IMG/VR virus record: IMGVR_UViG_3300007352_000003
Location: 1-54,388 of that record
From: a virus
Direction: 5' to 3' (one strand)
Length of the DNA: 54,388 nucleotides
The notes under the pieces are model-generated. The model was not told where the DNA came from. It searched no databases and was given only the letters and a program-made list of their open reading frames with translations. Shown here piece after piece: positions 23,539-49,715 of this stretch. Numbering within the stretch: the stretch's first letter is position 1; the number at the start of each line of letters is the position of its first letter. A program made the position numbers and the translations under genes.

Positions 23539-23540
23539 CA

Positions 23541-23918
23541 ATGAACGTGAAACGTTACTATTCGATGGTGGCCTTTTCTCCAGGCGAAGGGATATATGAG
23601 CATCCCGAAGGCGGCTACGTGAAGTGGGAGGACTATCAAGCCCTGCTCGATCAGTGTCAACCCATCACGCCCCCCCGCCCCGAGTTCGTCGAACTGCACT
23701 GGCCGGAGCCTATGTGGGTGCGAGCCAGCGAAATCGTCTTCGTTGAGGCGGCAACGGAAGGAAATGGACCCGAAATTCGAGGCTGTCACAGTATCGTCAC
23801 GATGAAAAGCGGGGAAGATAGATACTTCACGGAATCGCCCGCCGAGGTGTTCGCCAAAATGGGCGTGGCGATCCCGCCGCCTACTCCGGCCGCTTCGCAA
23901 TCGCCTCGATCAGGCTGA
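23541..23918 (+). CDS. hypothetical protein
   Basis: Internal ATG of track ORF 23517-23918. The 3-prime end overlaps the convergent recombinase gene by 38 nt. Confidence 0.45.
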   Translation: MNVKRYYSMVAFSPGEGIYEHPEGGYVKWEDYQALLDQCQPITPPRPEFVELHWPEPMWVRASEIVFVEAATEGNGPEIRGCHSIVTMKSGEDRYFTESPAEVFAKMGVAIPPPTPAASQSPRSG

Positions 23919-35631: not shown

Positions 35632-36738
35632 ATGGCGCTAGGCATTGAACAGTTAGACGACTTCATCCATTCGTTTCATCAGGAATACGACTGGGGGAAG
35701 TGGCAGGACATCTCCATGCCCCTGCAACAGTACTATTACGCCTCGCGGCTCTTCGACCAGGCCATGAAAGCGGAAATGACCGGGGCCTATTGCAAGTGGA
35801 AGTTGGAGGTCGATTACTCCGACAACTTCCAGATTGTCGGCCTCTACCATCGCGACGTGTCCGGCCGCGTGAACGTCCTCACTGAAGGCTCGATGCGGTG
35901 GGCGATGACCACCTGCAATTACCACTACGACATCGACGAAGAGGTCTTTGGCCAGGGCAGCAAGCAGATCGTCGATTACATGTCGGTATTGGAGAACGGC
36001 TTGATGAAGTCCTTCTTCGCCGGCATGGAAGATCAGATGTTCGGGGCTGGCCCGACTTCTTCGACGCAGTCGCCGAATCCGCCCTCCAGTCTCTTGTGGT
36101 GGATCACCTCGACCGACGATTCGACCACCGAAAACAACTCGGAAGAAGGCTTCGACGGATACGAGCCGCTGGGCTTCGGGTCGGCGGGTGTGGGCGGCAT
36201 CTCCTGCACGACCTACGAACAGTGGCGAAATCGCACGTTTCCCTACGTGCAGTTCTCGCGCGACGACGCGATCGAGAAAACGATCAACTCGATGGACCTC
36301 TGCGAATTCAAGCCGCCCATCGAGCGGCCGGACATCGTCCAACAAATGCGGCCGAACTGGGAAATTCTCACCACTCACAGCCGCCTGGCCCTGGGACGCA
36401 AGCTCCTGCAAGCCGGCAACGACAATATCCGCGATGACTTGGCGGCCCACTCGGGCAAGGTCTACATCCGCGGTGTGCCGATGCAGTGGGTGCCGGCTTG
36501 GACGAACTCCAGTTCCGTCAACGCCCGCACGGACGGCATTCTCTTGGGCGTCAACTGGAAAACGTTCAAGTGGTACTACCGTGAGGGCCGCAACATGCGG
36601 AAGCGAAAGGCGTTCCAGCACCCCGAAATGTCGAACGTCCGCATTCGCAAGATGGACGATGCGGGGCAAATCGTCTGCTTCAACCGGCGGGCCAACTTCC
36701 GCGGTTATTGCAGCTCGACTGTGACCGAGACCACGTAA
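35632..36738 (+). CDS. major capsid protein candidate
   Basis: 368 aa, AAGGAG RBS, sits between the scaffold-like gene and a strong terminator. Assignment is by order and size only. Confidence 0.55.
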   Translation: MALGIEQLDDFIHSFHQEYDWGKWQDISMPLQQYYYASRLFDQAMKAEMTGAYCKWKLEVDYSDNFQIVGLYHRDVSGRVNVLTEGSMRWAMTTCNYHYDIDEEVFGQGSKQIVDYMSVLENGLMKSFFAGMEDQMFGAGPTSSTQSPNPPSSLLWWITSTDDSTTENNSEEGFDGYEPLGFGSAGVGGISCTTYEQWRNRTFPYVQFSRDDAIEKTINSMDLCEFKPPIERPDIVQQMRPNWEILTTHSRLALGRKLLQAGNDNIRDDLAAHSGKVYIRGVPMQWVPAWTNSSSVNARTDGILLGVNWKTFKWYYREGRNMRKRKAFQHPEMSNVRIRKMDDAGQIVCFNRRANFRGYCSSTVTETT

Positions 36739-36802
36739 CCCGCGCCACAGAGGCAGGGCGGCGGGCGTGACTGAACGAATAAGCGTTTTTGGGAGCATAA
36801 TC

Positions 36803-37696
36803 ATGCAAGTTTTATGGAGCGAGCTTGATACCAGGCTGCTTTCGCCCAGACTCTGGTCGAAATTCGCCCCGCCGGTCGGTGGCGTCTTTAGAAGCACGGC
36901 CTCGGGCAACCCGGCCATCGGCTTCTTCGACGACTTTCTGAACTTCGGCGGACTCTTGGCCACGAACGATGGTCTCTATCATTCCGAAGGGAATCACTAC
37001 CGGTCGTATCAGACGGCGTCTTGCTACCTGCTGAACGTGGCCTGTTCGGCGACTCCGGCGAGTGTAGCGCCGACCTCTTACGGGGCGATCTCTTTCAATC
37101 CGACCAGCGGCGTGGTCGACAACGATACCGTCAGCCTAGCGTGGGGCGGCAACTTCAATTCGCCTTACGGGAGTTTCCCCTTCAACGTGATTCCCGGCAT
37201 GTCCAAGGATTTGGCCTTCGAGTGCCGGATTCAAGTATCGAGTATCGCGGAGACGATCGGCAACGTCTTTGTTGGCCTGGCCGGGGCGGCCGGCGTCGAT
37301 CCGGTTGCGGCCGCCGTGCCGATCACCCAGAGTGATGCCTTTGCGACCACCCAGAGTCTCTTGGGCTTCGGTCGCTTGGCTGCCGCTTCCACGGGCGCTT
37401 TCGGGCTCTATTACGAGCGAGCCTCCGGGACAACGGCATCGGTTGCCGGTGTCGCAACGGCCGTTGCGGCGACCTACATCAAACTGGGCTTCTACTGGGA
37501 CGCCGCGCGCCAGGAAGTGATTCCGTACATCGACGGAGCCAAGGTCGCGCGCTCTCTTCAGGTCGCCAAGGCCACAACCGGCGCAACCCCGTGGCCCAAC
37601 GACTACATGACCGCCGTGGCGGGCATCATGCAGACGGACGGCACGACGGCGCAGAAGCTCACGATGGACTGGTGGGCCTGCGCCCAAGCGGTCTGA
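36803..37696 (+). CDS. jelly-roll-like structural protein, distant paralogue of 48012-48866 and 48879-49715 (capsid decoration candidate)
   Basis: It shares ordered motifs with the two tail-proximal paralogues: GFFDDF, FECRIQV, NVFVGLAGAAG, LLGFG, GLYYERASG, KLGFYWD, IPYIDG. Confidence 0.5.
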   Translation: MQVLWSELDTRLLSPRLWSKFAPPVGGVFRSTASGNPAIGFFDDFLNFGGLLATNDGLYHSEGNHYRSYQTASCYLLNVACSATPASVAPTSYGAISFNPTSGVVDNDTVSLAWGGNFNSPYGSFPFNVIPGMSKDLAFECRIQVSSIAETIGNVFVGLAGAAGVDPVAAAVPITQSDAFATTQSLLGFGRLAAASTGAFGLYYERASGTTASVAGVATAVAATYIKLGFYWDAARQEVIPYIDGAKVARSLQVAKATTGATPWPNDYMTAVAGIMQTDGTTAQKLTMDWWACAQAV

Positions 37697-37729: not shown

Positions 37730-37759
37730 CCCCGGGGAACGGATTCCCCGGGGCTTTTT
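37730..37759 (+). terminator. strong intrinsic terminator after the capsid genes
   Basis: ccccggggaa-cgga-ttccccgggg (10-bp perfect stem) followed by cTTTTT. Confidence 0.8.
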
Positions 37760-37771
37760 AGGAGTCCTGCG

Positions 37772-38761
37772 ATGGCCGTCTTGAATATCTCCATGACCGC
37801 TTTGAAGGTCATCATCGCGGACTTTTTGGGCTGGAAGCGGAACACGGAAGGGGCGGGCGCCGATTGGAGCACGGAAACGATTGCCCGGCTGGGTGAAGTC
37901 ATCAACACGGCGGCCCGCAAGGTCTACTACCCCACCGTCATCGGCAGCGGCGGAGAATCCCGCCAGCACCAATGGAGCTTCCTGCGCCACCACACCACCC
38001 TCACGACTTCGGAGCCCTACGACACGGGCACCGTCACCATTGTGAGCACCGCCGTCACGCTAGCCGATGGGACTTTTCCTTCCTGGGCGGCCTACGGCGA
38101 CCTGGTGGTCGATAGCGAGCACTACGAAGTCGTTACCCGCGGCGGAGACACCAGCTTGACCCTTTCACGGGCCGCCGACTGTGACGCCGGGACTTCCTAT
38201 TCGTTGGAACGATTCGTCTATGACTTGCCAACCGATTTCGACTCCATGCGGAGCGACCCGGTCTATCACGTCGATCACGCGGAGGGCTACCGGACGCTGA
38301 AGCGGACCTCCGTCGAACACATTCACAGGCTGCGCCGTGACGACGGCGACGAGACCGACTACCCGCAGTGGTACGCCGTCCGGCCGGGCGAATGGGCCAC
38401 GGCCACCGGCCAGCGCTGGGAATTCCTGGTCTGGCCCACGCCGGTCGCTGAAGTGGTCCTGGAATACGAGTACGGGGTCCAGCCGTCCGTCACGGTCGCC
38501 ACCGACACCTACTTCAGAGGCGGGCCGCTTCTGGCCACGGCCCTGGAGGAGATGTGCCTGGCGGTGGCCGAGATGCGTTACGGGGATCGGTCGGGTAGCC
38601 ACGCCGGGATCGCCCGCGAGGCCCTTCTGGCGGCCATCGACGCGGACGCGGACCGGATGGCCCTGCCTTATCTCATCGGCGACCACGGTGGCGAGCTTTC
38701 CGACCCGCCCACCGACTACGTTCTCACGCCGACGATCACTCTCAACGGGGAGGAAATGTGA
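37772..38761 (+). CDS. virion structural protein (adaptor or head-completion candidate)
   Basis: AGGAG RBS, first gene after the terminator. No motif recognised. Confidence 0.45.
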   Translation: MAVLNISMTALKVIIADFLGWKRNTEGAGADWSTETIARLGEVINTAARKVYYPTVIGSGGESRQHQWSFLRHHTTLTTSEPYDTGTVTIVSTAVTLADGTFPSWAAYGDLVVDSEHYEVVTRGGDTSLTLSRAADCDAGTSYSLERFVYDLPTDFDSMRSDPVYHVDHAEGYRTLKRTSVEHIHRLRRDDGDETDYPQWYAVRPGEWATATGQRWEFLVWPTPVAEVVLEYEYGVQPSVTVATDTYFRGGPLLATALEEMCLAVAEMRYGDRSGSHAGIAREALLAAIDADADRMALPYLIGDHGGELSDPPTDYVLTPTITLNGEEM

Positions 38762-39462
38762 TGTCGCTGGCTAATGGGCTTTCGGGCTTCTGGTTTCCGG
38801 GTCTGGCCAACACGGGCACGACGATCCCCGACCGTTCCGGTCGCGGTCACAATGCCACGGTTCAAGGCGGCGCTTCGGCGGCCTGGCAGACCTCGCCGAC
38901 GGCCATTCGCCTGACCAGCGACAGTGATTACCTGGACTGCGGCAACGTGGTCTCGGCCGGGGCGAATATGACGGTGGCCTGCAAGGTGAAAGCGTTGGCG
39001 GCTGGCGCGTATCAACGGCTTGTTTCCAAGACCGATAATCTGGCGACCCCCGGCGGCTGGCAATTGTACTACACGAACGCCGACAAGCCGGCTTTTCGCG
39101 TGGACTTCGCCATCTACGGATACCAGATCGCGGATGCGGCTATCACGGTGACTGATTGGCAGACGGTTGCCGGGCGACTGGTTGCCGCCACCACGATGGA
39201 TGTGTTTGTGGGCGGCAGTGAAGTAGCCAGCACGTTGACGGGCACCGTTGGCACGCCGGATACCGTGACGGAGTCGATGTTCATCAATCGCCTCAACTGG
39301 GGCGTGGACACGTTCTATTACGGCAACATCGACGTGTCTTGGTTCGCCGTCTGGACGCGGAATCTCTCGGACGCGGAGATTTTGCTTCTTCAGAACCCCT
39401 ACGTTCTCTTGGATGAAGTCGTTGGCGGTGGGCTCCTCAAGCTGCCCCTCGGCCTTGCATAA
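38758..39462 (+). CDS. LamG/concanavalin-A-like lectin-fold protein
   Basis: LSGFWFPG...TIPDRSGRGHNATVQGG...AIRLTSDSDYLDCG fits the Laminin_G_3 pattern (W.f....v.D.SG.g.nG...g). Confidence 0.6.
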   Translation: MMSLANGLSGFWFPGLANTGTTIPDRSGRGHNATVQGGASAAWQTSPTAIRLTSDSDYLDCGNVVSAGANMTVACKVKALAAGAYQRLVSKTDNLATPGGWQLYYTNADKPAFRVDFAIYGYQIADAAITVTDWQTVAGRLVAATTMDVFVGGSEVASTLTGTVGTPDTVTESMFINRLNWGVDTFYYGNIDVSWFAVWTRNLSDAEILLLQNPYVLLDEVVGGGLLKLPLGLA

Positions 39463-39790: not shown

Positions 39791-41875
39791 ATGTCGGGGC
39801 ACGCCACCCTTCGCGATCTGCACGTCGCCGCTTTCGACACGGTCGATCCCGGCAATGGTGGCGTTCTGTTTGTCGATCGCTGGGGAGAGGTCTTTCCTCT
39901 CCGGTCGGGCGCCTCCGACGAGACGCGGACTCTGGTCCAGCCGGACAATATCGGGCAGGTGGCCACGGTCAAGCTTTTGGAGCACGGCGGCGGTGATGTG
40001 GTGCTCACCGTTACGGGCGGCTACAACCAGGCCGGTTCAACCACGATCACGTTCGACGCCGCCGGCGACTGGGTCATCTTCTATTCAATCGAGACTTCCA
40101 GCGGATTTTACTGGCGGATTATGGGGCAAGAGGGCACGGATGTCCTTCAAACGAACATGACGCTGGGAACCGTAACGGCGGGCCGGGTGAACGGCGAGTA
40201 CGTGGTTGACGGTTACACGTATGCGGCCACGCGGGCTGGGATTCAGGCGGCCATCGACGCGGCGATTGCGGCCGGGGGCGGGCGGGTGCGGATTCCGGTG
40301 GGTGAGTACACCATCGACTCGCCACTCTTGATTGACGCGGCGTCGAACATCAACCTCGTCGGAGACGGCTGGGGGACGGTTCTCAAGCTGGCCGACAATC
40401 TGACGGCCTTGAGTCCCGGCGACATTCCGAACGTCCTAGAGATCACCAATTCCAGCGGCGTCCGGGTCGGCAACCTTTGCGTCGATGGAAACTACGCCGG
40501 CCAAGCGGGGATGCCGCATCTGACCATGCGGTTTGCCGCGGTGGCTGAGGGCACGGGCGGGATGACCATCCAGTACACCGGCGCGGGCTCGGCCGCCACG
40601 CTCACAATCTCATCGGCTACGCTTACCACGTCCTGTACCGGTGCTGCGGTGGACGACCTCAACCTCGACCTGACGGCGGCCGGTTACGACACGTTGGCTG
40701 AGCTTGTGGCGTATATCAACGGCCTGGCTAACTATACCTGCACCAAGACCGCCACCTACGCGGCCAACTCCTACACGCCGGGCATGACTGAAGGCACAGT
40801 TGCCGACATCAAGAGCGCGCCGGTGGCCGTGCCGTGGAATTCCAGCGGCGACCCGACCGAGATTGAAATCTACGGCAATTGCCTCTTTGTGCAGGACTCG
40901 GACCACGTCACCATCGACACCTGTGAACTGAAAAACGCGGCCCATATCGGTGTGCTGTTCTATTCGGGCTGCACGAATTTTCAAGTCGTTCACTGTTCGG
41001 CCCACCACTGCAACTGGCGGCCGATCGAGGTTTGGCCGGATGATGAAGTCGGGTTAGACGACACGAGCCAGGGGCTGATCGGGTTCAACGACGTGGGTGA
41101 GTCGTACAACACTCCGATTGCCATCGAGTACGTCAACGACACCGCCTGCCTGGTCATCGGCAACAAGGTCCGGATCACAGATTCGACTTTCAGCGCCGGC
41201 ACCGATTGCTTGAAGGGCGGAATTCATTTTTACAAGGGCGGCGGCCACGTTGCCATCGGCAACAGCCTCTGGGGGTGTGGAATCTGGGTTTCCAGCGACA
41301 CCGGTTCGCTGAAACACCATTCGATCATTGGCAACCGGATCGACGGCCGGTACGTGGCGGACGGCTACGAGAGTTACGGGATTAACATCAACGGCGACTA
41401 CTGCGTGGTCCAGGGGAACACCGTCAACGACACCTACTACGCCGGCTTCACGATTCTAGGGGGCGAGTATTGCGTGGTTTCGGGAAACGTCTTCTCGAAC
41501 ATGGCCAACGCGATCATCGCCTACCTGACGGCCGACAACAACACATTTGTCGACAACCAGTTCGACACGATTTCCGGTGATGTGATCACGGACGCCGGCA
41601 CGAACAACACTTGGATTCGCCACGCCAACGGGCGCGTTGAGTACGGCGTACCCAACGGCTCCAATGTGGTCGAGTGGTTTTCCGAGCCTCTGATGGTCGA
41701 ACGATCGGCCAATCCTCCGGCGCCCGCGGAGGGCACGGCCATCATTTGGATGTCGGACGGCACGGGCGCGATGCTGGGCGACGACGGCGATGTGCTGATT
41801 GCCTCGACGGCGGGCGGTGTCACGAAGTACGCGGTTTTATTCGATCATTCGGCCGGAACTGCTTGGCCGGCCTGA
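39791..41875 (+). CDS. tailspike with right-handed parallel beta-helix (pectate-lyase-like depolymerase)
   Basis: TRAGIQAAIDAAIAAGGGRVRIPVGEYTIDSPL is followed by repeated beta-helix coils: VTIDTCELKNAAHIGV, FQVVHCSAHHC, IGNSLWGCGIWV, IIGNRIDG, VVQGNTVND, VVSGNVFSN. Confidence 0.75.
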   Translation: MSGHATLRDLHVAAFDTVDPGNGGVLFVDRWGEVFPLRSGASDETRTLVQPDNIGQVATVKLLEHGGGDVVLTVTGGYNQAGSTTITFDAAGDWVIFYSIETSSGFYWRIMGQEGTDVLQTNMTLGTVTAGRVNGEYVVDGYTYAATRAGIQAAIDAAIAAGGGRVRIPVGEYTIDSPLLIDAASNINLVGDGWGTVLKLADNLTALSPGDIPNVLEITNSSGVRVGNLCVDGNYAGQAGMPHLTMRFAAVAEGTGGMTIQYTGAGSAATLTISSATLTTSCTGAAVDDLNLDLTAAGYDTLAELVAYINGLANYTCTKTATYAANSYTPGMTEGTVADIKSAPVAVPWNSSGDPTEIEIYGNCLFVQDSDHVTIDTCELKNAAHIGVLFYSGCTNFQVVHCSAHHCNWRPIEVWPDDEVGLDDTSQGLIGFNDVGESYNTPIAIEYVNDTACLVIGNKVRITDSTFSAGTDCLKGGIHFYKGGGHVAIGNSLWGCGIWVSSDTGSLKHHSIIGNRIDGRYVADGYESYGININGDYCVVQGNTVNDTYYAGFTILGGEYCVVSGNVFSNMANAIIAYLTADNNTFVDNQFDTISGDVITDAGTNNTWIRHANGRVEYGVPNGSNVVEWFSEPLMVERSANPPAPAEGTAIIWMSDGTGAMLGDDGDVLIASTAGGVTKYAVLFDHSAGTAWPA

Positions 41876-41899: not shown

Positions 41900-42676
41900 A
41901 TGGACGCGCATAATGCGTTGCAGCAGTTGATGGTGGCCCCGTTCCGGATTCAGGACCCGGGGGACGGCGGCACGATCTATGTCGATCGCTGGGGTGGGGT
42001 CGCCGAAATCACGACGGAAGGGGCAAGCGAAACCCGCATCTTGCACACGCCGCCCCAGGAAGGCATTCAAGTCAAGGTCGTTCATGATACGGACGGCGGC
42101 GACTTCACTCTAACGGTGAATCCAGCCAGCGGGACTTGCTACGGCTACAACCAAGCCAACGCGACCACGATCGCCTTTGCAGACGCGGGCGACTGGGCGA
42201 TGTTTGTCTCGGTTGCGATTGGCACGGAGATCGTCTGGCGGCTGGTAGCGCAGGAGGGTACCAACGCCACCTTCACCGGCGGCGGGACGGTTACCAGCGA
42301 GACCATCACCACGGCGACAATCACGACGGGCACTATTACTGACTTGACCGCCACAAAACTCAAGTTGGCCGTCACTGCGGTTACGGCCGTGGGTGCCGTG
42401 CAGTCGGACGCCACTAATTCTCTTTCGCCCGGCTTGAACGTCATCAAAGGCGGCGGCGCCAGCTTGGGCGTCAAGCTGCCGACCGCCGAGGCGGGCATGG
42501 TGGTTTTAGTCGAGAATGCCTCGGGCAGCACGGCCCTGATTTACGGGGCGGTTACAGCGGCTATCATCAATGCGCTGGCAACTACGACGGGTTACAGCCT
42601 GGCTACGACGAAGAACACCATTCTCGTGGCCGAGAATTCCTCGCAGTGGTGGACATTTCCCCTGGCGGTGGCTTGA
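41900..42676 (+). CDS. tail fibre/spike protein sharing the N-terminal anchor module of 39791-41875
   Basis: Shared motifs: DPG-x-GG, VDRWG, ETR, GGD..LTV, YNQA..TTI.F.DAGDW, W.R...QEGT. The C-terminus is T/A/G-rich. Confidence 0.6.
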   Translation: MDAHNALQQLMVAPFRIQDPGDGGTIYVDRWGGVAEITTEGASETRILHTPPQEGIQVKVVHDTDGGDFTLTVNPASGTCYGYNQANATTIAFADAGDWAMFVSVAIGTEIVWRLVAQEGTNATFTGGGTVTSETITTATITTGTITDLTATKLKLAVTAVTAVGAVQSDATNSLSPGLNVIKGGGASLGVKLPTAEAGMVVLVENASGSTALIYGAVTAAIINALATTTGYSLATTKNTILVAENSSQWWTFPLAVA

Positions 42677-43956
42677 TGATTTCTTCGAGTATTGGTATTT
42701 CGACGCCCGTTCCATTCGAGGCTTCTGGAATGGAGGGCGTCCCGCGTTTGGGTCGCATCACGCCCGAGTGGCACCGGGCCCGGGCGGCTTTGCTCTATCC
42801 TGTCGGGCACAACTGCACCGAGATTTACGTCGACGGCATGGAAGTCGGCGTAGCCCGCAACCAGGCGGCCAAGACCGCCTTGGAATCGGGCATGAAGTAC
42901 CTCTTCTTCCTGGACTGGGACACGATCCCGCCACGCGATGCGCTCTGCCGGCTGGTCTACCATCTCGACAACCACCCGGATTACGACGTGGCGGCCGGGA
43001 TGTATTGTTCCAAGTCGATGCCGCCCTTTCCGCTTCTGTGGCGGGAGTGGGGCAAGGGCGTTTCGTGGGACTGGACGTTGGGCGAGGTGTTGACTGAGGG
43101 GGTTGTCGGCGTGCCGGCCGGCTGCACCCTTTACCGCGTCTCAGTATTCGGCCGGTTGCCGTTCACAGAGGCCACGCCATGGTTCAGGACCGACAAGGGC
43201 ACAATCGACCCGGGAGACGGGAGCGGCGAAGTACCGTTTTCCAGGACCGAGGACCTGTGGTTCTGCATGCGGCTCGACAAGGAGCTGCACGGCCGGATTC
43301 TGGTCGATACCGGTATCCAGTGCGACCACATCGACCACGCGACGGGTGTGCGGTTTTGCCTGCCGGACGACTGCTTGCCGCGATTCCGGGCGAAAGAGGC
43401 GGCCGACAAGCGGCGAACGGTTTTACACATCGGTTGCGGGCCGCGCGGCAGCGGCGTTCTGCCGCCGGAACTCCAGGGCGAACAGTGGCGGGAAATCCGG
43501 GTGGACGTCGACCCGGCCGTTCAGCCCGATGTAGTGGCGTCGATGACCGACTTGCGGCGATTCACCGACAGTTCGATTGACGCCGTCTATTCCTGGCATA
43601 ACGTGGAACACCTGCATTCTTTCGACGTGCCGATTGCCTTGAAAGAGTTCTATCGAGTCGTGAAGCCCGGCGGCTTGGCTATCATCGGCGTTCCCGACAT
43701 CCAGGCGGTTGCCGCAGAGGTGGCTGGAGGCAACTTGGAGGGTGCGCTGTACGAATCGCCCGCCGGCCCGATCTCCGCGATCGACATTCTCTACGGGCAC
43801 CGCGGCATGTCGCAGGGAAACCAGTTTCAACATCACCGGACGGCGTTCACCAGGGAATCGTTGCAACGTGCTCTGGAGGCGGCCGGATTCATGGTGGTGG
43901 AAATCCAACAGACTCTCGATAAGTGGGGATTGGCGGCCTACGCGACCAAGAAGTGA
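42676..43956 (+). CDS. fusion of a GT-A (family-2-like) glycosyltransferase and a class I SAM-dependent methyltransferase
   Basis: GT half: VARNQAAKTAL, YLFFLDWD (DxD), GCTLYRV, RTEDLWFCMRL. MT half: RTVLHIGCGPRG (motif I), SIDAVYSWHNVEHL, YRVVKPGGLAIIGVPD. Confidence 0.75.
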   Translation: MISSSIGISTPVPFEASGMEGVPRLGRITPEWHRARAALLYPVGHNCTEIYVDGMEVGVARNQAAKTALESGMKYLFFLDWDTIPPRDALCRLVYHLDNHPDYDVAAGMYCSKSMPPFPLLWREWGKGVSWDWTLGEVLTEGVVGVPAGCTLYRVSVFGRLPFTEATPWFRTDKGTIDPGDGSGEVPFSRTEDLWFCMRLDKELHGRILVDTGIQCDHIDHATGVRFCLPDDCLPRFRAKEAADKRRTVLHIGCGPRGSGVLPPELQGEQWREIRVDVDPAVQPDVVASMTDLRRFTDSSIDAVYSWHNVEHLHSFDVPIALKEFYRVVKPGGLAIIGVPDIQAVAAEVAGGNLEGALYESPAGPISAIDILYGHRGMSQGNQFQHHRTAFTRESLQRALEAAGFMVVEIQQTLDKWGLAAYATKK

Positions 43957-43959
43957 TTC

Positions 43960-46215
43960 ATGGCACCTAAGCCCAAGACTTCCGAAATCCTCTTTCCAAG
44001 TGGGGGTGTTGCGCGCCGACTGGCCTATCAACAGCAGCAGCCGTATACCTGCCAAGACGCGGCCAACGTCTGGCCGTTCGACCCGCTAGAGGGCAGGGAG
44101 CGGGGTGGGAGTCGGCCGGGGACCTCGAAGGCGTTTGCGACTGACCTGGGCGGGCCGATTCAAGGGCTCGGGTCGGTGACGATCGTCAATTCCAACGCCA
44201 CGATCTCGAATGTTCTGGCGGCGATGGTGGACGGGATGGTCTGGTACAACGCCGCCGGGACTATGACGGCGCTCTACGGCGGAAAGAACCTCGTGGTCAA
44301 TCCGGGCTTCGAGACCTTTACGGGCACGGCCGACGACGCCACTAGTGACACTTTCACGAGTTGGACGAACTACGTCCCTGATGCGGGCGACAAGGCTCTT
44401 GCCATCACCGGCGGCCGCACGGGCACCGCTGGCACCTACTCACTGAAGATCATTCGCGGGGCGGGTGCGGCGCGGCCCTATGTCAAAACCAATAACCAGC
44501 GAATTGCGACCGCCGCCGGCACGATCTGCCAGTTGTCTTTCTGGACCAAAGGCGACGGGACCGGGCAGGGACGTTACGCCGTCTACGCGCAGGGCGCCGG
44601 CTCTTACGCGAAGGCGGTTACCCAGACTGGTGTGTCCGCGGCAACTTGGACAGAAGTCACGACTACTTTCACTGTACCGGCCAGCACGACCTACCTGGAA
44701 CTCTACCTCTATGGTTGTGACAACAACACGGAATCGTGCTTTTTCGATGATGTCGTTCTCAAGGTCAAAAACCCGCTCAACGCCACGGCCGATACACTAC
44801 TCGCCACCCCCCACCATCAAAAACTCTACATCGGCGACTACCGCGCCACGCGGCTCTACGGCACGGACGGGGTGATCGCCTCGGGCAACCAGCTTTCAGC
44901 GGCCAGTATTTCCGACTGGACGGCGCAGTCGATCGACATTACCCGTGACGTGGTCTTGTTGGTCGACCCGGACGCAGCCACAACGGCCGAAGACGACGTG
45001 TACGAGATTACCGCCGTGGCGGCGGGGTATCTGACGCTGGACCCGGCGCCCAACGATACCGGCCCTGGAAGCGACCTCACGCCGGGCAGCGGCTGGATTT
45101 GGGAAATCGGCCGCAAAATCCAGGTGTACGACCCCAGCACCGGCGAGATCGACCCGCTTGAGGCTACCTACGGGATTCCACCGATTAACTGCCCGCTGAT
45201 CTGCACCTACCGGGACCGGATTGTCGCTTGCCAGTCAAATATCTGGTACATGAGCCGCGCCGGTGACGCCACCGACTGGGATTTCGGCTACACGCCCGAG
45301 GACCCGCTTCGGCCGATGGCGGCCACGATCACGGACGCCGCGGGCTACGTGGCCGATCCGATTCTCTGCGTCATTCCGCATTCGGACGACTACCTGATCT
45401 TCGGGGCGGAGCGGAGCATCTACCTGATGCGGGGCGACCCAGGCGGCGGTGGCCAGATCGACACGGTCAGCCGCGAAATTGGCATCATCTCCGCCACGGC
45501 CTGGGCGAAGCTGCCGGACTCGTCGATTGTCTTCCTCTCCCGCCTGGGGCTTTACGTCATGTCGGCCGGGGCTGGGGCGCCGGAACCGTGGTCCCCGCAG
45601 GTCCTGCCTCAGTCCCTGCGCGACGTTGACGTGACGGCCAAGACGGTCTCCATGGCCTATGATGGGTTGAACCGGGGCGTCCACCTCTTCATCACGCCCA
45701 CGGCGGGGACGGTCGGTGAGCATTATTTTCTGTCTGTTGAAACACGGGGCATTTTCCCGGTCACTCTGCCGAATGCCCAACAGCCGACGTGCCTGGTGAC
45801 TTACGCGGCCGATCAGGGCGACCCGGCCTATGTGCTGATGGGCTGCTACGACGGGTACGTTCGCCGCTACGATTCCAGCGTGGCCACGGATGACGGCACG
45901 GCCATCACGAGTTACGTCACGATCGGGCCTTTGAGGTTGGCCGGGCCCGGCGATGAGGGCATGATCACTGAACTGGGCTGCACGCTGGACGAGGATTCGG
46001 CCGACGTGACGTGGGAATTGATGGTCGGGGATTCCGCGGAGGCAGCCGTTGACAACGCCACGGCGGATTACTCGGGCACCTGGACGGCCGGGTGGAACGG
46101 CATCACCGCGCCCCGCGTCCGCGGCCAGGCCGCCAAACTGAAGCTGTCGGGCACCGATGACTGGGCGATGGAGTCGATTCCGATCACCGTGGCGCATGCC
46201 GGGAGGCAACGCTGA
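43960..46215 (+). CDS. large tail protein with CBM4/9-like carbohydrate-binding insert (nozzle or tubular-tail candidate)
   Basis: 751 aa. NLVVNPGFETFTG...FTSWTNY...CFFDDVVLKV resembles a CBM_4_9-type jelly roll. Confidence 0.55.
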   Translation: MAPKPKTSEILFPSGGVARRLAYQQQQPYTCQDAANVWPFDPLEGRERGGSRPGTSKAFATDLGGPIQGLGSVTIVNSNATISNVLAAMVDGMVWYNAAGTMTALYGGKNLVVNPGFETFTGTADDATSDTFTSWTNYVPDAGDKALAITGGRTGTAGTYSLKIIRGAGAARPYVKTNNQRIATAAGTICQLSFWTKGDGTGQGRYAVYAQGAGSYAKAVTQTGVSAATWTEVTTTFTVPASTTYLELYLYGCDNNTESCFFDDVVLKVKNPLNATADTLLATPHHQKLYIGDYRATRLYGTDGVIASGNQLSAASISDWTAQSIDITRDVVLLVDPDAATTAEDDVYEITAVAAGYLTLDPAPNDTGPGSDLTPGSGWIWEIGRKIQVYDPSTGEIDPLEATYGIPPINCPLICTYRDRIVACQSNIWYMSRAGDATDWDFGYTPEDPLRPMAATITDAAGYVADPILCVIPHSDDYLIFGAERSIYLMRGDPGGGGQIDTVSREIGIISATAWAKLPDSSIVFLSRLGLYVMSAGAGAPEPWSPQVLPQSLRDVDVTAKTVSMAYDGLNRGVHLFITPTAGTVGEHYFLSVETRGIFPVTLPNAQQPTCLVTYAADQGDPAYVLMGCYDGYVRRYDSSVATDDGTAITSYVTIGPLRLAGPGDEGMITELGCTLDEDSADVTWELMVGDSAEAAVDNATADYSGTWTAGWNGITAPRVRGQAAKLKLSGTDDWAMESIPITVAHAGRQR

Positions 46216-47229: not shown

Positions 47230-47700
47230 ATGTCTTTAGCACGACTGGACTTTTTCGACGACGTCTGTGATCACGGTCCCCACCCGCACTTGCGATTGCG
47301 ACACACTGAGTTTGCGTTGCCGGCTACGGAACATTTTTGCACGAGTCATTTGTATGAATTGCCCTCCGGGAATATCAGCCTCTTGCCTTCTGCTGGTCAT
47401 GGACTAGTCGGATGGAGCGGCGAAACAACGGTTCCATACTTGTGGACAACGCGTTTTGTGTCTTTGTGGGGTCAATGGTACTTCAACACAGACTGGATCT
47501 GGAACGATTGGGTTTGGGAGCCTGGTTTGAACGGGCTTTACTGGTTTTTGGACGAAGGTGCACAGCGCTGCTCGATTCTGATTGGCAGCGGCGGCGGCTT
47601 GGCTGGTGTTTACGATCCAGTGGCGAGAGAGGATTTAGCCTATTTGTATCAGCTTCCCCATCCGGACGTGCATCATTACTACATGACCGATTACCAATAG
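47230..47700 (+). CDS. Trp-rich hypothetical protein (fibre chaperone candidate by position)
   Basis: Follows the fibre gene. Lower GC content. Confidence 0.4.
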   Translation: MSLARLDFFDDVCDHGPHPHLRLRHTEFALPATEHFCTSHLYELPSGNISLLPSAGHGLVGWSGETTVPYLWTTRFVSLWGQWYFNTDWIWNDWVWEPGLNGLYWFLDEGAQRCSILIGSGGGLAGVYDPVAREDLAYLYQLPHPDVHHYYMTDYQ

Positions 47701-47710
47701 GAGCCTTGCC

Positions 47711-48034
47711 GTGATTTGTCCGCAGGGACCCTTGCGACGAAAAAGTCAGAAGCCATCTCGGCAGATTCGGCGGGAGAGTCGCAAAGGCGATTTTCGATTG
47801 ACTCGATTGTGTCGGGCTTCGGTGCGTGGTGATCGAGTGTACTTTGATGCGGGACCTGGACTGCGAGTCAGTGGCATACTTCGCGACTGGGAGGGTGGCC
47901 TGGCGGTCATCGAAATAGACGGGGCTGATATTGGCCGGCCGCAGTATAGGCCGGGTTTTCCGGAAGTATCGCCTTGCATGCGTGTGCCCGTGGGCTGCGC
48001 GGAGGGAAAAGATGGGGTCAACCATAGCGGGTAA
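47711..48034 (+). CDS. possible small ORF, weak
   Basis: GTG start. Fills the gap before 48012. The basic N-terminus is not convincing. Confidence 0.25.
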   Translation: MICPQGPLRRKSQKPSRQIRRESRKGDFRLTRLCRASVRGDRVYFDAGPGLRVSGILRDWEGGLAVIEIDGADIGRPQYRPGFPEVSPCMRVPVGCAEGKDGVNHSG

Positions 48035-48866
48035 CGGTCGGGGCTTCTCTACGGACCTCTGGTACGGGTTCGACGTGGACTCGATTTTCATCGACCGCGA
48101 TGAGAACGTGGGTTTCGGCATCCATCCGAATTTCGCCTGTTTCGACCGGGCGGTGGACGCGGCGGCCCCCACGGTTTTCTACGGTCCGGACGGAGCGCGG
48201 GGGTACGCCGACAGCACGTCAGCTTCCATTGCTCAGATTGCGGCCCTGATGGGCGGGGCTGTGCGGCTGGCGACGGGGGCCACCCAATACCAAGAAGCCT
48301 GGTTGCAGTGGGGTGGGGCGACCGGCAGTCCCTTCGTGATCTCGGACACGGACGCGGTCAACTTGGACTTGCGGTTGGAAATGGCCGTCCGGGTCTCGAA
48401 TTCGGCCTTCGCCAATCAGGCTCTTTTCGTCGGCTTGGCCGAGGAGGGCAGCGCGGCGGCCGATTTCATCACGGACCTCGGGGCGATGGCGGACAAGGAT
48501 TTCATCGGCTGGTTCTTGTCCGGGGATAATGGTCTGGACTTCGTCTACCGCAAGGCCGGGCAGGCGATGCAGACCCACGCGGCAAGCTGGAAGACTTTGG
48601 CTATCGACACCTGGTATCACTTCGGCCTGGAGTGGGACACGGACACCGACACGGTGACTCCCTGGTACGGCACAGGGGACCGGTCCACCACGCCGATGGC
48701 CCAGGACAAAACCTCGATCATCACGTCCACCACGGTGGCCACGGCCACGTTCCCGGACGGGAGTTACATGAGTCCCATCATCGGCACCAAGGGGCTGGGG
48801 ACGGCCAATGTGCAAATTGACTGCCGATTGCTGGGGGTGGCGCAGTTGGCACCGGCTGCGGATTGA
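48012..48866 (+). CDS. jelly-roll-like structural protein, paralogue 2
   Basis: The ATG at 48012 has GGAGGG upstream. Motifs shared with 48879-49715: GRGFS.DLW.GF, MGGAVR, FVGLAE.GSA, ADKD.IG, DFVYRK.G, PWYGTGDR.T. Confidence 0.55.
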   Translation: MGSTIAGNGRGFSTDLWYGFDVDSIFIDRDENVGFGIHPNFACFDRAVDAAAPTVFYGPDGARGYADSTSASIAQIAALMGGAVRLATGATQYQEAWLQWGGATGSPFVISDTDAVNLDLRLEMAVRVSNSAFANQALFVGLAEEGSAAADFITDLGAMADKDFIGWFLSGDNGLDFVYRKAGQAMQTHAASWKTLAIDTWYHFGLEWDTDTDTVTPWYGTGDRSTTPMAQDKTSIITSTTVATATFPDGSYMSPIIGTKGLGTANVQIDCRLLGVAQLAPAAD

Positions 48867-48878
48867 AAGCGAACTATT

Positions 48879-49715
48879 ATGGGAATGTTGGATCAGACCG
48901 AGGGGCGAGGGATTTCGTTCGACCTCTGGTCTGGGTTTCCGGTTGATGACGTGTTGGCGGGCCGGAACGCCAACACGGGGGCTGTCGTCAAACCAAACCT
49001 GGCGTCCTTCCGGGTCTGGGCCGATGACAGCGGCACGGTGGTTTGCGGCCAGAACGGCGAACGGGGGCATGTCGAAAACGGCGATATTTACCAGTTGCCG
49101 GCCTATATGGGCGGCGCGGTCCGCTGGCATGCGGACGGCACCCTGGGCGGGCAGGCGAGCGTGCAGTGGGGCGGCGGGGCGTTTGTGATCAGCAGCACGA
49201 CCGGGAGTAACCGCGACTTGATCTTCGAGGCGGCCGTCAGACAGTCCTACGTGGACGGGCCGCAAGACCTCGCGTGGTTCGTGGGATTAGCCGAGCCTGG
49301 ATCGGCGGTGAGCGGGTTTGCGACTTCGGGGCTGGCGGACAAGGACTTGATTGGCGTTTACTCCAGCGGCAACGCGACCGGCGCGGTGGATTTCGTCTAC
49401 CGCAAGAGCGGCAGTGCGATACAGACACCGGGATCGGTAATTTGGACGATCGGTACGGGATGGGTTCATATTGGATTCGAGTACGATCCGGCGATTGGCT
49501 CCGTGGTCCCTTGGTACGGCACGGGGGACAGAACGACCAGCGTCATGCAGCCGTACAAGTACGGGCAGGTCGCTCCGGGCGAGATTTCCTCGGGGCTTTT
49601 CCCGGCCGACCAACCGTTGACGCCGATCGTGGCGGTGGCGGGGCTGTTACAAGCCAGTAATTTGGACGTGAGACTTTTGGCCTGCGGCCAGCGAGCCGCG
49701 GCACATAGAGAGTGA
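48879..49715 (+). CDS. jelly-roll-like structural protein, paralogue 3
   Basis: See 48012-48866. This is a tandem paralogue. Confidence 0.55.
   Translation: MGMLDQTEGRGISFDLWSGFPVDDVLAGRNANTGAVVKPNLASFRVWADDSGTVVCGQNGERGHVENGDIYQLPAYMGGAVRWHADGTLGGQASVQWGGGAFVISSTTGSNRDLIFEAAVRQSYVDGPQDLAWFVGLAEPGSAVSGFATSGLADKDLIGVYSSGNATGAVDFVYRKSGSAIQTPGSVIWTIGTGWVHIGFEYDPAIGSVVPWYGTGDRTTSVMQPYKYGQVAPGEISSGLFPADQPLTPIVAVAGLLQASNLDVRLLACGQRAAAHRE

What the first reader, a model, noticed from the sequence alone, without database searches (positions are those of the whole stretch)
42676..43956. Glycosyltransferase-methyltransferase fusion embedded in the tail-fibre genes
A single 426-aa ORF is translationally coupled (TGATG) to the preceding fibre gene and followed by the 751-aa tail protein. 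It fuses a GT-A-type glycosyltransferase (DxD in FFLDWD, ED..FC motif) to a class I SAM methyltransferase (LHIGCG, VKPGG). Enzymes in this position are candidates for modifying the virion itself. Glycosylation of capsid and tail proteins by phage-encoded glycosyltransferases is known in mycobacteriophages. A methylated glycan made by a fused enzyme would be a distinct variant. The enzyme could alternatively remodel host surface polysaccharide, which would be seroconversion or exclusion.
Basis: partly seen in the sequence, partly recalled or inferred. Interest (0 to 1): 0.65.

Follow-up and report, generated by a model that had tools for sequence, protein, structure and literature searches.

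The report
Phage glycosyltransferase–methyltransferase fused enzyme beside fibre gene
A complete genome of an uncultured phage encodes, inside its tail operon, one soluble enzyme that joins a sugar-adding domain to a methyl-adding domain; it is inherited together with one particular tail-fibre module, which suggests, but does not prove, that the phage decorates its own fibre with a methylated sugar.

Summary
ORF 42676-43956 (426 aa) is a real gene whose start overlaps the upstream fibre gene's stop (TGATG). It fuses a GT-A/GT2-like glycosyltransferase (residues 1-236; DxD, TED and H218 conserved; closest structure STIV A197) to a class I SAM methyltransferase (residues 245-426).

The window is a closed circular phage genome of about 54.3 kb, podovirus-like. 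The enzyme has no membrane segment and lies inside the tail transcription unit.

Its GT family is essentially viral, with 1,310 cluster representatives, and always sits in virion modules. About half the members have an MT fused or adjacent, and MTs were recruited in at least three independent ways.

In this phage's clade the enzyme is accessory. Eighty sister loci with 64-76% identical capsid proteins lack it. It co-occurs with one fibre C-terminal domain. In another large group a "c0 protein-MT-GT" cassette is conserved in 64 of 68 loci.

Best reading (confidence about 0.5): late cytoplasmic glycosylation of a virion protein, probably the adjacent fibre, with O-methylation of the sugar. Main rival: masking of the host receptor glycan. 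DNA glycosylation is unsupported.

Precedents exist (PBCV-1 A064R; mycobacteriophage O-MT plus GTs), so this is a new variant of a known kind.

The parts
42676..43956 (+). GT-MT gene (426 aa plus stop): a bifunctional glycosyltransferase-methyltransferase
   Evidence: ORF and sequence. Homolog family of about 50 full-length fusions at 31-62% identity. AF2 model with pLDDT 93.7. No TM segment: maximum 19-residue Kyte-Doolittle hydropathy is 1.35.
42676..43383 (+). GT-A (GT2-like, A197-like) glycosyltransferase domain, residues 1-236
   Evidence: Pfam GT2 at 22.5 bits, just under the GA threshold. Relatives hit PF00535 at E = 4e-32. Profile hit to PDB 2c0n (A197) at E = 1.9e-4. Domain model pLDDT 95.8 and pTM 0.92. 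Foldseek returns A197 (2e-9), SpsA, R699, ColGalT1, LH3, TarP and RmlT, all GT-A.
42913..42921 (+). DxD motif (D80-W81-D82) within FFLDWD: predicted site for metal and nucleotide-sugar binding
   Evidence: D82 invariant and D80 at least 90% conserved in 51 sequences and in 41 sequences that include stand-alone GTs. Codons read directly from the sequence.
43246..43254 (+). T191-E192-D193 (TEDLWF): GT2-type 'ED' motif and candidate catalytic base region. H218 (43327-43329) is also invariant.
   Evidence: E192, D193 and H218 are invariant. The catalytic role is inferred from general knowledge of GT-A/GT2 enzymes.
43408..43953 (+). Class I SAM-dependent methyltransferase domain, residues 245-426
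   Evidence: Methyltransf_23 at E = 1.8e-12 and Methyltransf_11 at E = 8e-10, both above GA. PDB MT hits 2p8j, 1ve3 and 3dli. Foldseek returns MT structures. G253 and G255 (motif I, 43432-43440), D277, H308, E311 and H312 are invariant.
41900..42676 (+). Fibre gene directly upstream (258 aa, 'c7'). The N-terminal anchor domain (about residues 1-120, 41900-42259) is shared with the tailspike. The C-terminal domain (about residues 165-258, 42392-42673) co-occurs with the GT(-MT).
   Evidence: N-terminus 40% identical to w39791, E = 1e-26. A C-domain HMM hits at 107-212 bits only in fibres directly upstream of a GT(-MT), and is absent from 80 sister loci.
39791..41875 (+). Tailspike-like protein (694 aa) with a right-handed beta-helix; the second receptor-binding protein, carrying the same N-terminal anchor
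   Evidence: Pfam Beta_helix at E = 7e-15 and NosD. phrog_2234 tail spike at E = 8e-13. Weak NCBIfam matches to parallel beta-helix and galacturonidase-like models.
43960..46215 (+). Downstream virion structural protein (751 aa, 'c1', nozzle-like) with an inserted CBM_4_9 domain (residues 109-252, about 44284-44715)
   Evidence: CBM_4_9 at 26.2 bits. A family representative hits phrog_3287 virion structural protein at E = 2e-19. In other phages it directly follows the SU10-type adaptor. No PDB sequence relative was found, so 'nozzle' is a positional inference.
37772..38761 (+). Head-to-tail adaptor-like protein (329 aa), first gene of the tail unit
   Evidence: 34% identical (E = 1e-40) to the L001 protein that carries Pfam SU10_adaptor. 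The window protein itself has no Pfam hit.
38758..39462 (+). Laminin_G_3 (concanavalin-like lectin fold) protein in the tail unit
   Evidence: Pfam PF13385 at E = 7e-12. The same family occurs in the homologous modules of L001 and contig ZO3-fL14.
35632..36738 (+). Major capsid protein with a Ser/Thr-rich C-terminal tail (...GYCSSTVTETT). Considered as an acceptor and not supported.
   Evidence: NCBIfam capsid_maj_Podo at E = 4.5e-18, covering residues 37-356. The tail is conserved in sister loci that lack the GT-MT.
37730..37753 (+). Strong terminator-like hairpin upstream of the tail unit. With the hairpin at 47517-47539 it brackets the unit that contains the GT-MT.
   Evidence: 10-bp stem with 8 GC pairs plus a T run. 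The only other + strand terminator-like site in between is a weak one inside ORF 39791-41875.

Best explanation
The gene encodes a soluble, cytoplasmic, bifunctional enzyme made late in infection together with the tail proteins. The N-terminal GT-A domain is metal-dependent (DxD motif) and transfers one sugar from a host nucleotide-sugar to an acceptor. The fused class I SAM methyltransferase then methylates that sugar, as a tailoring step. The most likely acceptor is a virion protein being assembled at the same time, with the C-terminal (distal) domain of the fibre encoded just upstream (41900-42676) as first candidate. The result would be a fibre carrying a methylated monosaccharide, which could affect its stability, its receptor interaction or its recognition by host defences. 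Shown here: the two folds, their conserved catalytic motifs, the absence of TM segments, the operon position, the restriction of the family to viruses and to virion modules, the recurrent pairing of GT and MT, and the co-inheritance with particular fibre or virion-protein modules. Inferred: the donor, the acceptor, that the MT acts on the sugar, and the biological effect.
For: (1) Enzyme identity. The GT-A fold and motifs are supported; the MT fold and motifs. (2) The protein is soluble, with no TM segment. (3) Late-operon position. There is a start/stop overlap upstream and a 3-nt gap downstream, and terminator-like hairpins occur only at the borders of the tail unit. (4) The family is viral. 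Only 4 relatives were found in 185,579 species genomes, on MAG contigs; one of the two fusion-bearing contigs (L084) shares its gene content with IMG/VR phage contig L016, and the other (L083) carries a c0 gene next to the GT. By contrast there are 111 relatives in IMG/VR and 1,310 cluster representatives overall. (5) The GT always lies in a virion module: fibre-GT-MT-nozzle; c0-MT-GT; MCP-x-GT-adaptor; TerL-GT-portal; coat-MT-GT-adaptor. (6) GT and MT are functionally coupled. Of the top 150 GT representatives, 47 are fused to this MT family, at least 17 to a different family (Methyltransf_24), and some carry the MT N-terminally. Separate MT-then-GT genes occur in 55 of 68 c0-anchored loci. 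About half of the GT loci have no MT, as expected if methylation is an optional tailoring of the transferred sugar. (7) Co-inheritance with a virion protein. The c7 fibre C-domain occurs only next to a GT(-MT), and both are absent from 80 sister loci. In c0-anchored loci the GT lies within 4 kb downstream in 64 of 68 cases. (8) Precedents. PBCV-1 A064R is a GT-A + GT + MT enzyme that methylates the capsid glycan (PMC9614988). Mycobacteriophage O-MT and GT genes modify capsid and tail tube (PMC11600133). The closest solved structure, A197, comes from STIV; the glycosylation of the STIV coat protein is stated from my own recollection and was not checked here. (9) Bacterial relatives of the MT domain are fused to GT41, a protein O-GlcNAc-transferase-like domain, next to a pilin gene.
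Against: There is no direct evidence of any glycan on any protein. The fibre's T-rich stretch is not conserved, and no conserved acceptor motif was found. The capsid tail, the acceptor type known from mycobacteriophages, does not track the enzyme. One lineage (L016/L084) has the GT-MT without the c7 fibre domain. The GT-only architectures sit next to capsid, terminase or portal genes rather than fibres, so there may not be a single acceptor across the family. The 'tail fibre' label for c0 is weak (phrog_4176, E = 2e-7), and c0 sits among head genes. Co-inheritance with a receptor-binding module is equally predicted by the receptor-masking rival. One sigma-70-like match lies 110 nt upstream of the gene at 42540-42567; it is not above chance, but independent expression cannot be excluded. 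The MT could methylate a protein side chain rather than a sugar.
Confidence: 0.5

Rival explanations
1. Receptor masking, seroconversion or exclusion. The enzyme acts in the cytoplasm on a lipid-linked precursor of a host envelope glycan (O-antigen, capsule or teichoic-acid-like polymer). It adds a methylated sugar cap that alters the very receptor recognised by the co-inherited fibre. This would protect lysogens or infected cells from superinfection, or keep progeny from sticking to debris.
For: Soluble GT-A enzymes that glycosylate wall polymers in the cytoplasm are among the structural neighbours (TarP, which is prophage-encoded, and RmlT). An enzyme that must match the fibre's receptor would also be co-inherited with that fibre module. 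The genome carries a serine recombinase, so a temperate lifestyle is possible. The neighbouring tailspike is a beta-helix, depolymerase-like protein, which implies a polysaccharide receptor. From general knowledge, conversion genes lie next to the tailspike gene in P22-like phages.
Against: The gene is translationally coupled inside the late tail operon rather than standing as an independently expressed moron next to a lysogeny module. There is no TM segment and no flippase or GtrA/GtrC-like partner. The family is almost absent from cellular genomes and glycan clusters. The c0-MT-GT cassettes sit among head genes in many unrelated phages. In a lytic cycle, late expression leaves little time to remodel an existing cell surface (inference).
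Confidence: 0.25
2. Two separate modifications of the same virion protein. The GT glycosylates it, and the MT methylates an amino-acid side chain (Lys, Arg, Gln or Asn) rather than the sugar.
For: Methylation of phage tail proteins, there by a host enzyme, is reported as necessary for infectivity (PMC13445384, abstract seen). Methyltransf_11/23 families include both protein and small-molecule MTs, so fold alone does not fix the substrate.
Against: Three different MT families or orientations have been recruited to the same GT family, which is most simply explained if they act on the GT's product. MT-only occurrences next to c0 are rare (1 of 68), whereas GT-only architectures are common; this is the pattern expected if methylation depends on glycosylation. 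The characterised analogue A064R-D3 methylates the sugar.
Confidence: 0.1
3. DNA hypermodification. The GT glycosylates a modified base in phage DNA, and the MT belongs to the same pathway.
For: Phage GT-A enzymes with R...DDD...EDY/F motifs and TarP-like folds do glycosylate 5hmC in DNA (bioRxiv 10.1101/2023.12.21.572611). The window GT has a comparable generic R...DxD...ED pattern.
Against: Those systems are defined by neighbouring C5-cytosine MT plus 5mYOX/TET genes, or by ThyS homologs. None was found among the window ORFs scanned in this closed circular genome. The MT here is a Methyltransf_11/23 type, not a DNA C5 or N6/N4 MT. The gene lies in the virion module in every lineage examined, not with replication genes.
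Confidence: 0.03
4. Another role: a virion-packaged or injected effector, or an auxiliary metabolic enzyme that makes a methylated glycoside of a small molecule.
For: Its position in the structural module would also fit a packaged protein. GT-A and MT folds do not by themselves fix the substrate.
Against: There is no precedent or supporting feature. Tight co-inheritance with specific fibre or c0 modules is not explained.
Confidence: 0.07

Closest known systems
Chlorovirus PBCV-1 A064R (GT-A rhamnosyltransferase + second rhamnosyltransferase + class I SAM methyltransferase)
   Same: A virus-encoded, soluble, multidomain enzyme in which an N-terminal DxD GT-A domain is fused to a C-terminal class I MT. 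The MT O-methylates the sugar that the GT part installs on a virion (capsid) glycan (PMC9614988).
   Different: It comes from a giant virus of a eukaryotic alga and has three domains (638 aa). It extends an existing N-glycan rather than, presumably, starting one. No sequence-level relationship was detected: no A064R chain appeared in the PDB sequence or profile searches at E <= 1. Its gene is not in a tail operon.
Mycobacteriophage virion glycosylation (Che8 GTs; Cluster O O-methyltransferase + three tandem GTs)
   Same: Phage-encoded GTs, in Cluster O together with an O-MT, modify virion proteins (PMC11600133 and PMC12619734 citing Freeman et al. 2023).
   Different: The genes are separate and there are several GTs. 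The acceptors are the C-termini of capsid and tail-tube proteins in siphoviruses of actinobacteria. The Che8 GT is only a distant structural match (BFVD rank 44, TM 0.27). In the window's clade the capsid C-terminal tail does not track the enzyme. The primary paper could not be read.
STIV A197 (PDB 2c0n), a minimal viral GT-A glycosyltransferase
   Same: It is the closest solved structure to the N-terminal domain (Foldseek E = 2e-9, TM 0.67 on the target; profile E = 1.9e-4). It is a small DxD GT-A encoded by a virus whose coat protein, by my own recollection and not checked here, is glycosylated.
   Different: It comes from an archaeal virus, is a single domain without an MT, shares only 14% identity, and its acceptor was, to my knowledge, never established.
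Prophage-encoded TarP (and TarS, RmlT): cytoplasmic GT-A enzymes that glycosylate wall teichoic acid
   Same: It has a GT-A/GT2 fold (Foldseek about 4e-5), is soluble and phage-borne, and changes a phage receptor.
   Different: It is a lysogenic-conversion gene with its own expression, carries an oligomerisation domain and has no MT. It acts on a host polymer. The window gene is embedded in the late tail operon.
GtrABC seroconversion modules of P22-like and Shigella phages
   Same: They are phage GT2-family enzymes genetically linked to tailspike genes (general knowledge).
   Different: GtrB is membrane-anchored and needs the GtrA flippase and a GtrC transferase. No TM segment and no such partners are present here.

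Membership tests
GT-A fold glycosyltransferases (GT2-like; Pfam PF00535) | Single Rossmann-like alpha/beta/alpha GT-A fold | tested here: met
   The domain model has pLDDT 95.8 and pTM 0.92. The top 40 Foldseek PDB matches are all GT-A glycosyltransferases (A197, SpsA, R699, ColGalT1, LH3, PmHS2, TarP, RmlT); two nucleotidyltransferases of the same fold class appear at ranks 41 and 43.
GT-A fold glycosyltransferases (GT2-like; Pfam PF00535) | DxD metal and nucleotide-sugar binding motif after the central strand | tested here: met
   FFLDWD: D82 is invariant and D80 at least 90% conserved in 51 and in 41 sequences.
GT-A fold glycosyltransferases (GT2-like; Pfam PF00535) | Score above Pfam's gathering threshold for Glycos_transf_2 | tested here: inconclusive
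   The window protein scores 22.5 bits against a cutoff of 23.3. Many homologs carry a precomputed PF00535 hit, and 17 of 31 family members hit it, best E = 4e-32. Family-level membership holds, but this sequence is marginal.
Class I SAM-dependent methyltransferases (Methyltransf_11/23) | Pfam gathering threshold; Rossmann-like MT fold | tested here: met
   Methyltransf_23 at 47.8 bits (cutoff 27) and Methyltransf_11 at 39.7 bits (cutoff 21.2). Foldseek hits 2p8j, METTL6, CurJ C-MT and others at about 1e-8.
Class I SAM-dependent methyltransferases (Methyltransf_11/23) | Glycine-rich motif I (GxG) and an acidic residue at the end of strand 2 that binds the SAM ribose | tested here: met
   VLHIGCG with G253 and G255 invariant; D277 invariant. 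The SAM-binding role is inferred from general knowledge of the family.
Phage virion-glycosylation systems (mycobacteriophage Che8 / Cluster O type) | Glycan covalently attached to virion proteins | not testable with these tools
   This needs glycoprotein staining or MS of virions or of co-expressed proteins.
Phage virion-glycosylation systems (mycobacteriophage Che8 / Cluster O type) | Homology of the GT to the Che8 GTs | tested here: not met
   The Che8 GT Q855A2 is only rank 44 in BFVD, with TM 0.27-0.29. No actinophage was among the tblastn hits in 50,697 phage records.
Phage virion-glycosylation systems (mycobacteriophage Che8 / Cluster O type) | Acceptor is the Ser/Thr-rich C-terminus of the capsid or tail-tube subunit, and tracks the presence of the enzyme | tested here: not met
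   The MCP tail GYC[TS]xTVTET[AT] is conserved in the 24 sister loci inspected, which lack any GT or MT.
PBCV-1 A064R-type multidomain glycan-building enzymes | GT-A domain and class I MT on one polypeptide in a virus | tested here: met
   Domain architecture, compared with PMC9614988.
PBCV-1 A064R-type multidomain glycan-building enzymes | Detectable homology to A064R | tested here: not met
   No A064R/A64R chain appeared at E <= 1 in the PDB sequence or profile searches or in the top 50 structural matches. The resemblance is in architecture, not ancestry.
Gtr-type seroconversion (GtrA/GtrB/GtrC) | Membrane-anchored GT2 with flippase and periplasmic transferase partners | tested here: not met
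   Maximum 19-residue hydropathy is 1.35, so there is no TM segment. The neighbours are fibre, tailspike and nozzle-like proteins.
DNA-hypermodifying phage GT-A enzymes (5hmC glycosylation) | Neighbourhood with a C5-cytosine MT plus 5mYOX/TET, or with a ThyS homolog | tested here: not met
   The definition comes from bioRxiv 10.1101/2023.12.21.572611. None of these was found among the window ORFs scanned with Pfam and PHROGs in this closed circular genome. The only DNA MT is an N6_N4 type, 30 kb away.

The most novel reading that the evidence does not exclude
A mobile cassette consisting of a receptor-binding or virion-surface protein plus a GT-A glycosyltransferase, with or without a methyltransferase, is widespread in uncultured podovirus-like phages (hundreds of contigs). 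It post-translationally glycosylates the phage's own fibre with a methylated sugar. Fibre glycosylation would then be a heritable determinant of host range or immune evasion, swapped together with the fibre tip, and virion glycosylation would be common well beyond actinobacteriophages.
Probability: 0.4. Interest if true: 0.75.

Novelty: new variant of a known kind. Interest (0 to 1): 0.55.

Why it matters
Glycosylation of phage particles by phage-encoded enzymes has, in the literature I could reach, been shown only for mycobacteriophages, where it blunts antibody recognition. If this family does the same, virion glycosylation would extend to a large, virus-specific enzyme family (about 1,300 sequence clusters) in environmental phages, and from capsid and tail tube to receptor-binding fibres. 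The comparative data give concrete, cheap experiments, namely co-expressing two adjacent genes and weighing the fibre. They also suggest a rule, that the enzyme travels with the fibre tip, which matters for predicting host range, for engineering phage fibres, and for interpreting "orphan" GT and MT genes that are routinely annotated as metabolic or DNA-modifying.

Tried and rejected
(1) The capsid C-terminal Ser/Thr tail as acceptor: rejected as a specific partner, because the tail is conserved in sister loci that lack the enzyme.

(2) The fibre's T-rich stretch (residues 124-153) as a conserved acceptor: it is not conserved in the closest homolog.

(3) DNA hypermodification: no TET, ThyS or C5-MT was found among the ORFs scanned in the complete genome.

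(4) Gtr-like membrane GT: there is no TM segment.

(5) Remote homology between the two kinds of upstream partner protein (c0 and c7): none was found (hhalign probability 0.1-0.2%), although c0a and c0b are homologous (98.6%).

(6) Identifying the downstream 751-aa protein, the c7 fibre, c0 and the MCP through PDB sequence profiles: no hits. hhalign of the window's MCP candidates against a PHROG-annotated MCP family also failed; NCBIfam finally identified the MCP.

(7) Cultured relatives: none. There were only four metagenome-assembled phages in GenBank.

(8) Host assignment: the only clue is two short MAG contigs binned to Planctomycetota. The NCBI cluster look-up gave no names.

(9) Freeman et al. 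2023 could not be read, and no paper on this cassette was found.

(10) The first c7 alignment was too divergent for a pattern scan and was split into two.

(11) PHROGs and Pfam gave nothing for most structural proteins of the window.
Full report
OBSERVATION. ORF 42676-43956 on the + strand encodes 426 aa. Its ATG shares one base with the TGA of the upstream ORF 41900-42676 (…GGCTTGATGATT…), and the 751-aa ORF 43960-46215 starts 3 nt after its stop. An upstream GTG at 42646 would add 10 residues, but the N-termini of homologs align with the ATG. The gene's GC content matches the rest of the window (0.61-0.62). The gene is certainly real: a search of 5.8 billion proteins returned about 50 full-length homologs at 31-62% identity, with E-values down to 2e-178.

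DOMAINS. Residues about 245-426 are a class I SAM methyltransferase. Methyltransf_23 (E = 1.8e-12) and Methyltransf_11 (E = 8e-10) both exceed Pfam's thresholds. PDB sequence and profile searches return only SAM MTs for this half. G253 and G255 (LHIGCG), D277, H308, E311 and H312 are invariant in 51 sequences.

Residues 1-236 score just under Pfam's GT2 cutoff in this protein (22.5 against 23.3 bits). However, many homologs carry PF00535 and family members reach E = 4e-32. The family profile hits PDB 2c0n, the STIV GT-A protein A197, at E = 1.9e-4. AlphaFold models are confident (whole protein pLDDT 93.7; N-domain alone pLDDT 95.8 and pTM 0.92). The N-domain model matches almost only GT-A glycosyltransferases: A197 (2e-9), SpsA, mimivirus R699, ColGalT1, LH3, heparosan synthase, TarP and RmlT. 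F78 and D82 are invariant and D80 is at least 90% conserved (FLDxD); E192, D193 (TEDLWF) and H218 are invariant. Both halves therefore look catalytically competent. There is no hydrophobic segment (maximum 19-residue hydropathy 1.35), so the enzyme is soluble and cytoplasmic.

THE WINDOW. The first and last 99 nt are identical, so the contig is a closed circular assembly of about 54.29 kb, that is, a complete genome. One ORF of about 1,766 aa runs across the junction. It is a divergent podovirus-like phage. It has a helicase, a primase, an N6_N4 DNA methylase and an ERCC4 nuclease. It also has a weak TerL match and a weak SU10-type portal match, and a podovirus-type major capsid protein at 35632-36738 (NCBIfam capsid_maj_Podo, E = 4.5e-18). 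The protein at 37772-38761 is related to a protein that carries SU10_adaptor.

The tail unit runs in this order: adaptor; Laminin_G_3 protein (38758-39462); a 104-aa protein; a beta-helix tailspike (39791-41875); a 258-aa fibre (41900-42676); the GT-MT; then a 751-aa virion structural protein with a CBM_4_9 insert. The tailspike and the fibre share an N-terminal domain of about 120 residues (40% identity, E = 1e-26), as expected for two receptor-binding proteins docking on the same site. On the + strand, terminator-like hairpins occur at 37730-37753 (strong) and 47517-47539. Only a weak one lies between them, inside an ORF. The single sigma-70-like match upstream of the gene (42540-42567) is not above the number expected by chance. 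"Embedded in the tail genes" is therefore correct.

COMPARATIVE GENOMICS. (a) The family is viral. A scan of one genome for each of 185,579 species found four relatives. The two that carry the fusion are short contigs binned to Planctomycetota MAGs. One of them (L084) has the same gene content as IMG/VR phage contig L016, and the other (L083) carries a c0 gene next to the GT. IMG/VR holds 111 relatives. GenBank phages include only four metagenome-assembled genomes, in one of which the pair was annotated "methyltransferase domain | A197 protein transferase" between the coat and tail-adaptor genes. A phmmer search of the GT domain against 1.84 billion cluster representatives gives 1,310 hits at E <= 1e-3 and 402 at E <= 1e-10.

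(b) The GT is always in a virion module. I clustered the ORFs of 86 loci and annotated the cluster representatives, which gave five architectures:
- fibre(c7)-GT-MT-nozzle-like(c1), the window type;
- c0-GT-MT;
- c0-MT-GT;
- scaffold-MCP-x-GT-SU10 adaptor-c1-fibre;
- TerL-GT-x-SU10 portal.

(c) GT and MT are coupled, but the MT is optional. Among the best 150 GT representatives, 75 are stand-alone and 47 are fused to this MT family. Of the 26 with other extensions (scanned in a set of 31), 17 of the 31 carry a different MT family (Methyltransf_24), and some have a Methyltransf_11 domain at the N-terminus, giving the reverse order. In L006 the two halves are separate genes with a GTGA overlap. 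About half of the GT-anchored IMG/VR loci (34 of 70) have an MT of this family fused or within 3 kb, and the capsid-proximal architectures have none. Repeated, independent recruitment of different MTs to one GT family, together with GT-only but hardly any MT-only arrangements, is what one expects if the MT tailors the sugar that the GT transfers. This is what A064R domain 3 does in PBCV-1.

(d) The enzyme is co-inherited with a particular virion protein. I scanned IMG/VR with the small c0 protein alone, which is independent of the GT, and retrieved 90 loci. Of the 68 with at least 2.5 kb downstream, 55 have MT-then-GT, 8 have the fused GT-MT, 1 has the GT only, 1 has the MT only and 3 have neither. 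The median distance from the end of c0 to the start of the GT is 645 bp.

In the window's own clade the enzyme is accessory. A scan with the capsid protein returned 80 loci at 64-76% identity, and none has any GT or MT. Eight of them show adaptor and nozzle-like genes with other fibres in between. Those sister fibres share only the N-terminal anchor domain. The C-terminal domain of the window's fibre (…LAT…ENSSQWW or CDGTNWW) scores 107-212 bits only in fibres that lie directly upstream of a GT(-MT), in 7 distinct contigs. In the sister loci it scores at most 17 bits. One lineage (L016/L084) has the GT-MT without that domain.

WHAT IT MOST LIKELY DOES. The enzyme is a soluble bifunctional protein made with the tail proteins. 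It belongs to a virus-only family tied to virion modules and is swapped together with a fibre tip or the c0 protein. The simplest mechanism is that it glycosylates a virion protein in the cytoplasm during assembly and methylates the attached sugar. For this phage the most probable acceptor is the adjacent fibre's distal domain. I put this at about 0.5.

The acceptor remains an inference. The fibre's T-rich stretch is not conserved. The capsid protein's Ser/Thr-rich C-terminal tail, analogous to the acceptor sites reported for mycobacteriophages, is conserved whether or not the enzyme is present. c0 is only weakly fibre-like and sits among head genes. Bacterial relatives of the MT domain are fused to GT41 (protein O-GlcNAc-transferase-like) domains in a cluster with a pilin gene, which fits a protein-glycan context.

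RIVALS. Receptor masking or seroconversion (about 0.25) also predicts co-inheritance with a receptor-binding module. It has precedents in soluble GT-A enzymes such as prophage TarP, and a serine recombinase in the genome leaves room for lysogeny. Against it stand the translational coupling inside the late operon, the absence of membrane partners, and the near-absence of the family from cellular glycan clusters.

Protein methylation plus glycosylation as two independent marks (about 0.1) fits less well with the recruitment of three kinds of MT and the scarcity of MT-only arrangements.

DNA hypermodification (about 0.03) lacks its defining partners among the ORFs scanned in a complete genome.

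COMPARISON WITH KNOWN SYSTEMS. In architecture the closest is PBCV-1 A064R, a GT-A + GT + MT enzyme that builds the 2-O-methyl-rhamnose cap of the capsid N-glycan (PMC9614988), but no homology is detectable. In biology the closest are the mycobacteriophage systems: the Che8 GTs, and the Cluster O O-MT plus three GTs. Those genes are separate and not homologous, and they target capsid and tail-tube C-termini. In structure the closest is STIV A197.

The finding is therefore a new variant of a known kind. What is new is the two-domain fusion in a phage, its position in a podovirus tail operon, and above all the family-wide pattern: virus-specific, confined to virion modules, coupled to an MT, and co-inherited with a fibre module. 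I could not find this pattern described, though the literature I could search is limited.

CAVEATS. ORFs in the loci were called with a simple longest-ORF rule that favours the + strand. The IMG/VR scans rely on short peptide patterns and return at most 80 loci, so the counts are samples rather than censuses. The MT HMMs detect only the Methyltransf_11/23-type family, so "GT-only" loci may carry other MTs. The host is unknown; Planctomycetota is only a hint.

Noticed in passing
window 1-99 and 54290-54388; ORF 52174 -> end -> 3185: The first and last 99 nt are identical, so the contig is a closed circular assembly (about 54,289 bp, a complete genome). A single ORF of about 1,766 aa reads in frame across the junction. 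Neither half has a Pfam or PHROG hit.
   Followed up: partly
window 23881-24603 (-), with 23493-23900 (-): A serine recombinase (Resolvase domain at E = 3e-36 plus the start of a Recombinase domain), followed by an overlapping 135-aa ORF on the same strand. It may be a large serine integrase split by a frameshift, or a small resolvase/invertase. The phage may therefore be temperate.
   Followed up: no
window 35632-36738 (C-terminus 36703-36735) and loci L187-L266: The podovirus-type major capsid protein ends in a Ser/Thr-rich tail, GYC[TS]xTVTET[AT], that extends past the end of the NCBIfam capsid model. The tail was conserved in all 24 sister loci whose C-termini were inspected (of 80 relatives at 64-76% identity), whether or not a GT is present. 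Its function is unknown.
   Followed up: partly
window 36767-37696, 47931-48866, 48879-49715: Three paralogous proteins of about 300 aa (one BLAST cluster): one directly after the capsid gene and two in tandem after the tail unit. None has a family hit. The first copy is 57-62% identical to its counterparts in two related phage loci (L004, L016) and about 30% in a third (L005).
   Followed up: no
window 39791-41875 and 41900-42676; sister loci L192-L266: Two receptor-binding proteins share an N-terminal anchor domain of about 120 residues (40% identity). Sister phages have one to three ORFs with the same anchor but different C-terminal parts, some only 118-145 aa long. This is a modular fibre-swapping system.
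   Followed up: partly
window 43960-46215 (insert about 44284-44715): The nozzle-like virion protein carries a CBM_4_9 carbohydrate-binding insert and is 751 aa long. Homologs in sister and related phages are mostly 363-547 aa, with a few of 661-863 aa.
   Followed up: no
loci L093-L182 (e.g. L094 4965-6701): A conserved three-gene cassette, c0 (150-190 aa, weakly fibre-like) then a short Methyltransf_11 MT then the GT, is found after the MCP, after the portal or before the adaptor in many otherwise different phage contigs. It therefore behaves as a mobile unit.
   Followed up: yes
loci L011, L012, L013 (MT of 405-420 aa four genes upstream of the GT-MT): These phages carry a second, longer MT-domain protein of the same MT family near the GT-MT fusion.
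   Followed up: no
loci L027, L029, L047, L048, L052 (gene just downstream of the GT, e.g. L027 10716-11051): In the TerL-GT-portal architecture the GT is followed by a small (102-127 aa) protein rich in Ser, Gly and Thr, with low sequence complexity (cluster c16). It could be an acceptor or just a spacer protein.
   Followed up: no
L184 (GCA_034541955.1 chromosome, 2057575-2078891): A bacterial relative of the MT domain is fused to a GT41 domain. It lies in a cluster with further GT41/TPR genes, a GT4, two Methyltransf_21 genes and a Pilin_GH gene, which may be a pilin glycosylation island.
   Followed up: no
window 12480-13193: An N6_N4-type DNA methyltransferase (E = 3e-24) in the replication module. 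Relatives of it lie next to stand-alone MT-domain genes in L018, L020 and L023, probably by coincidence.
   Followed up: no
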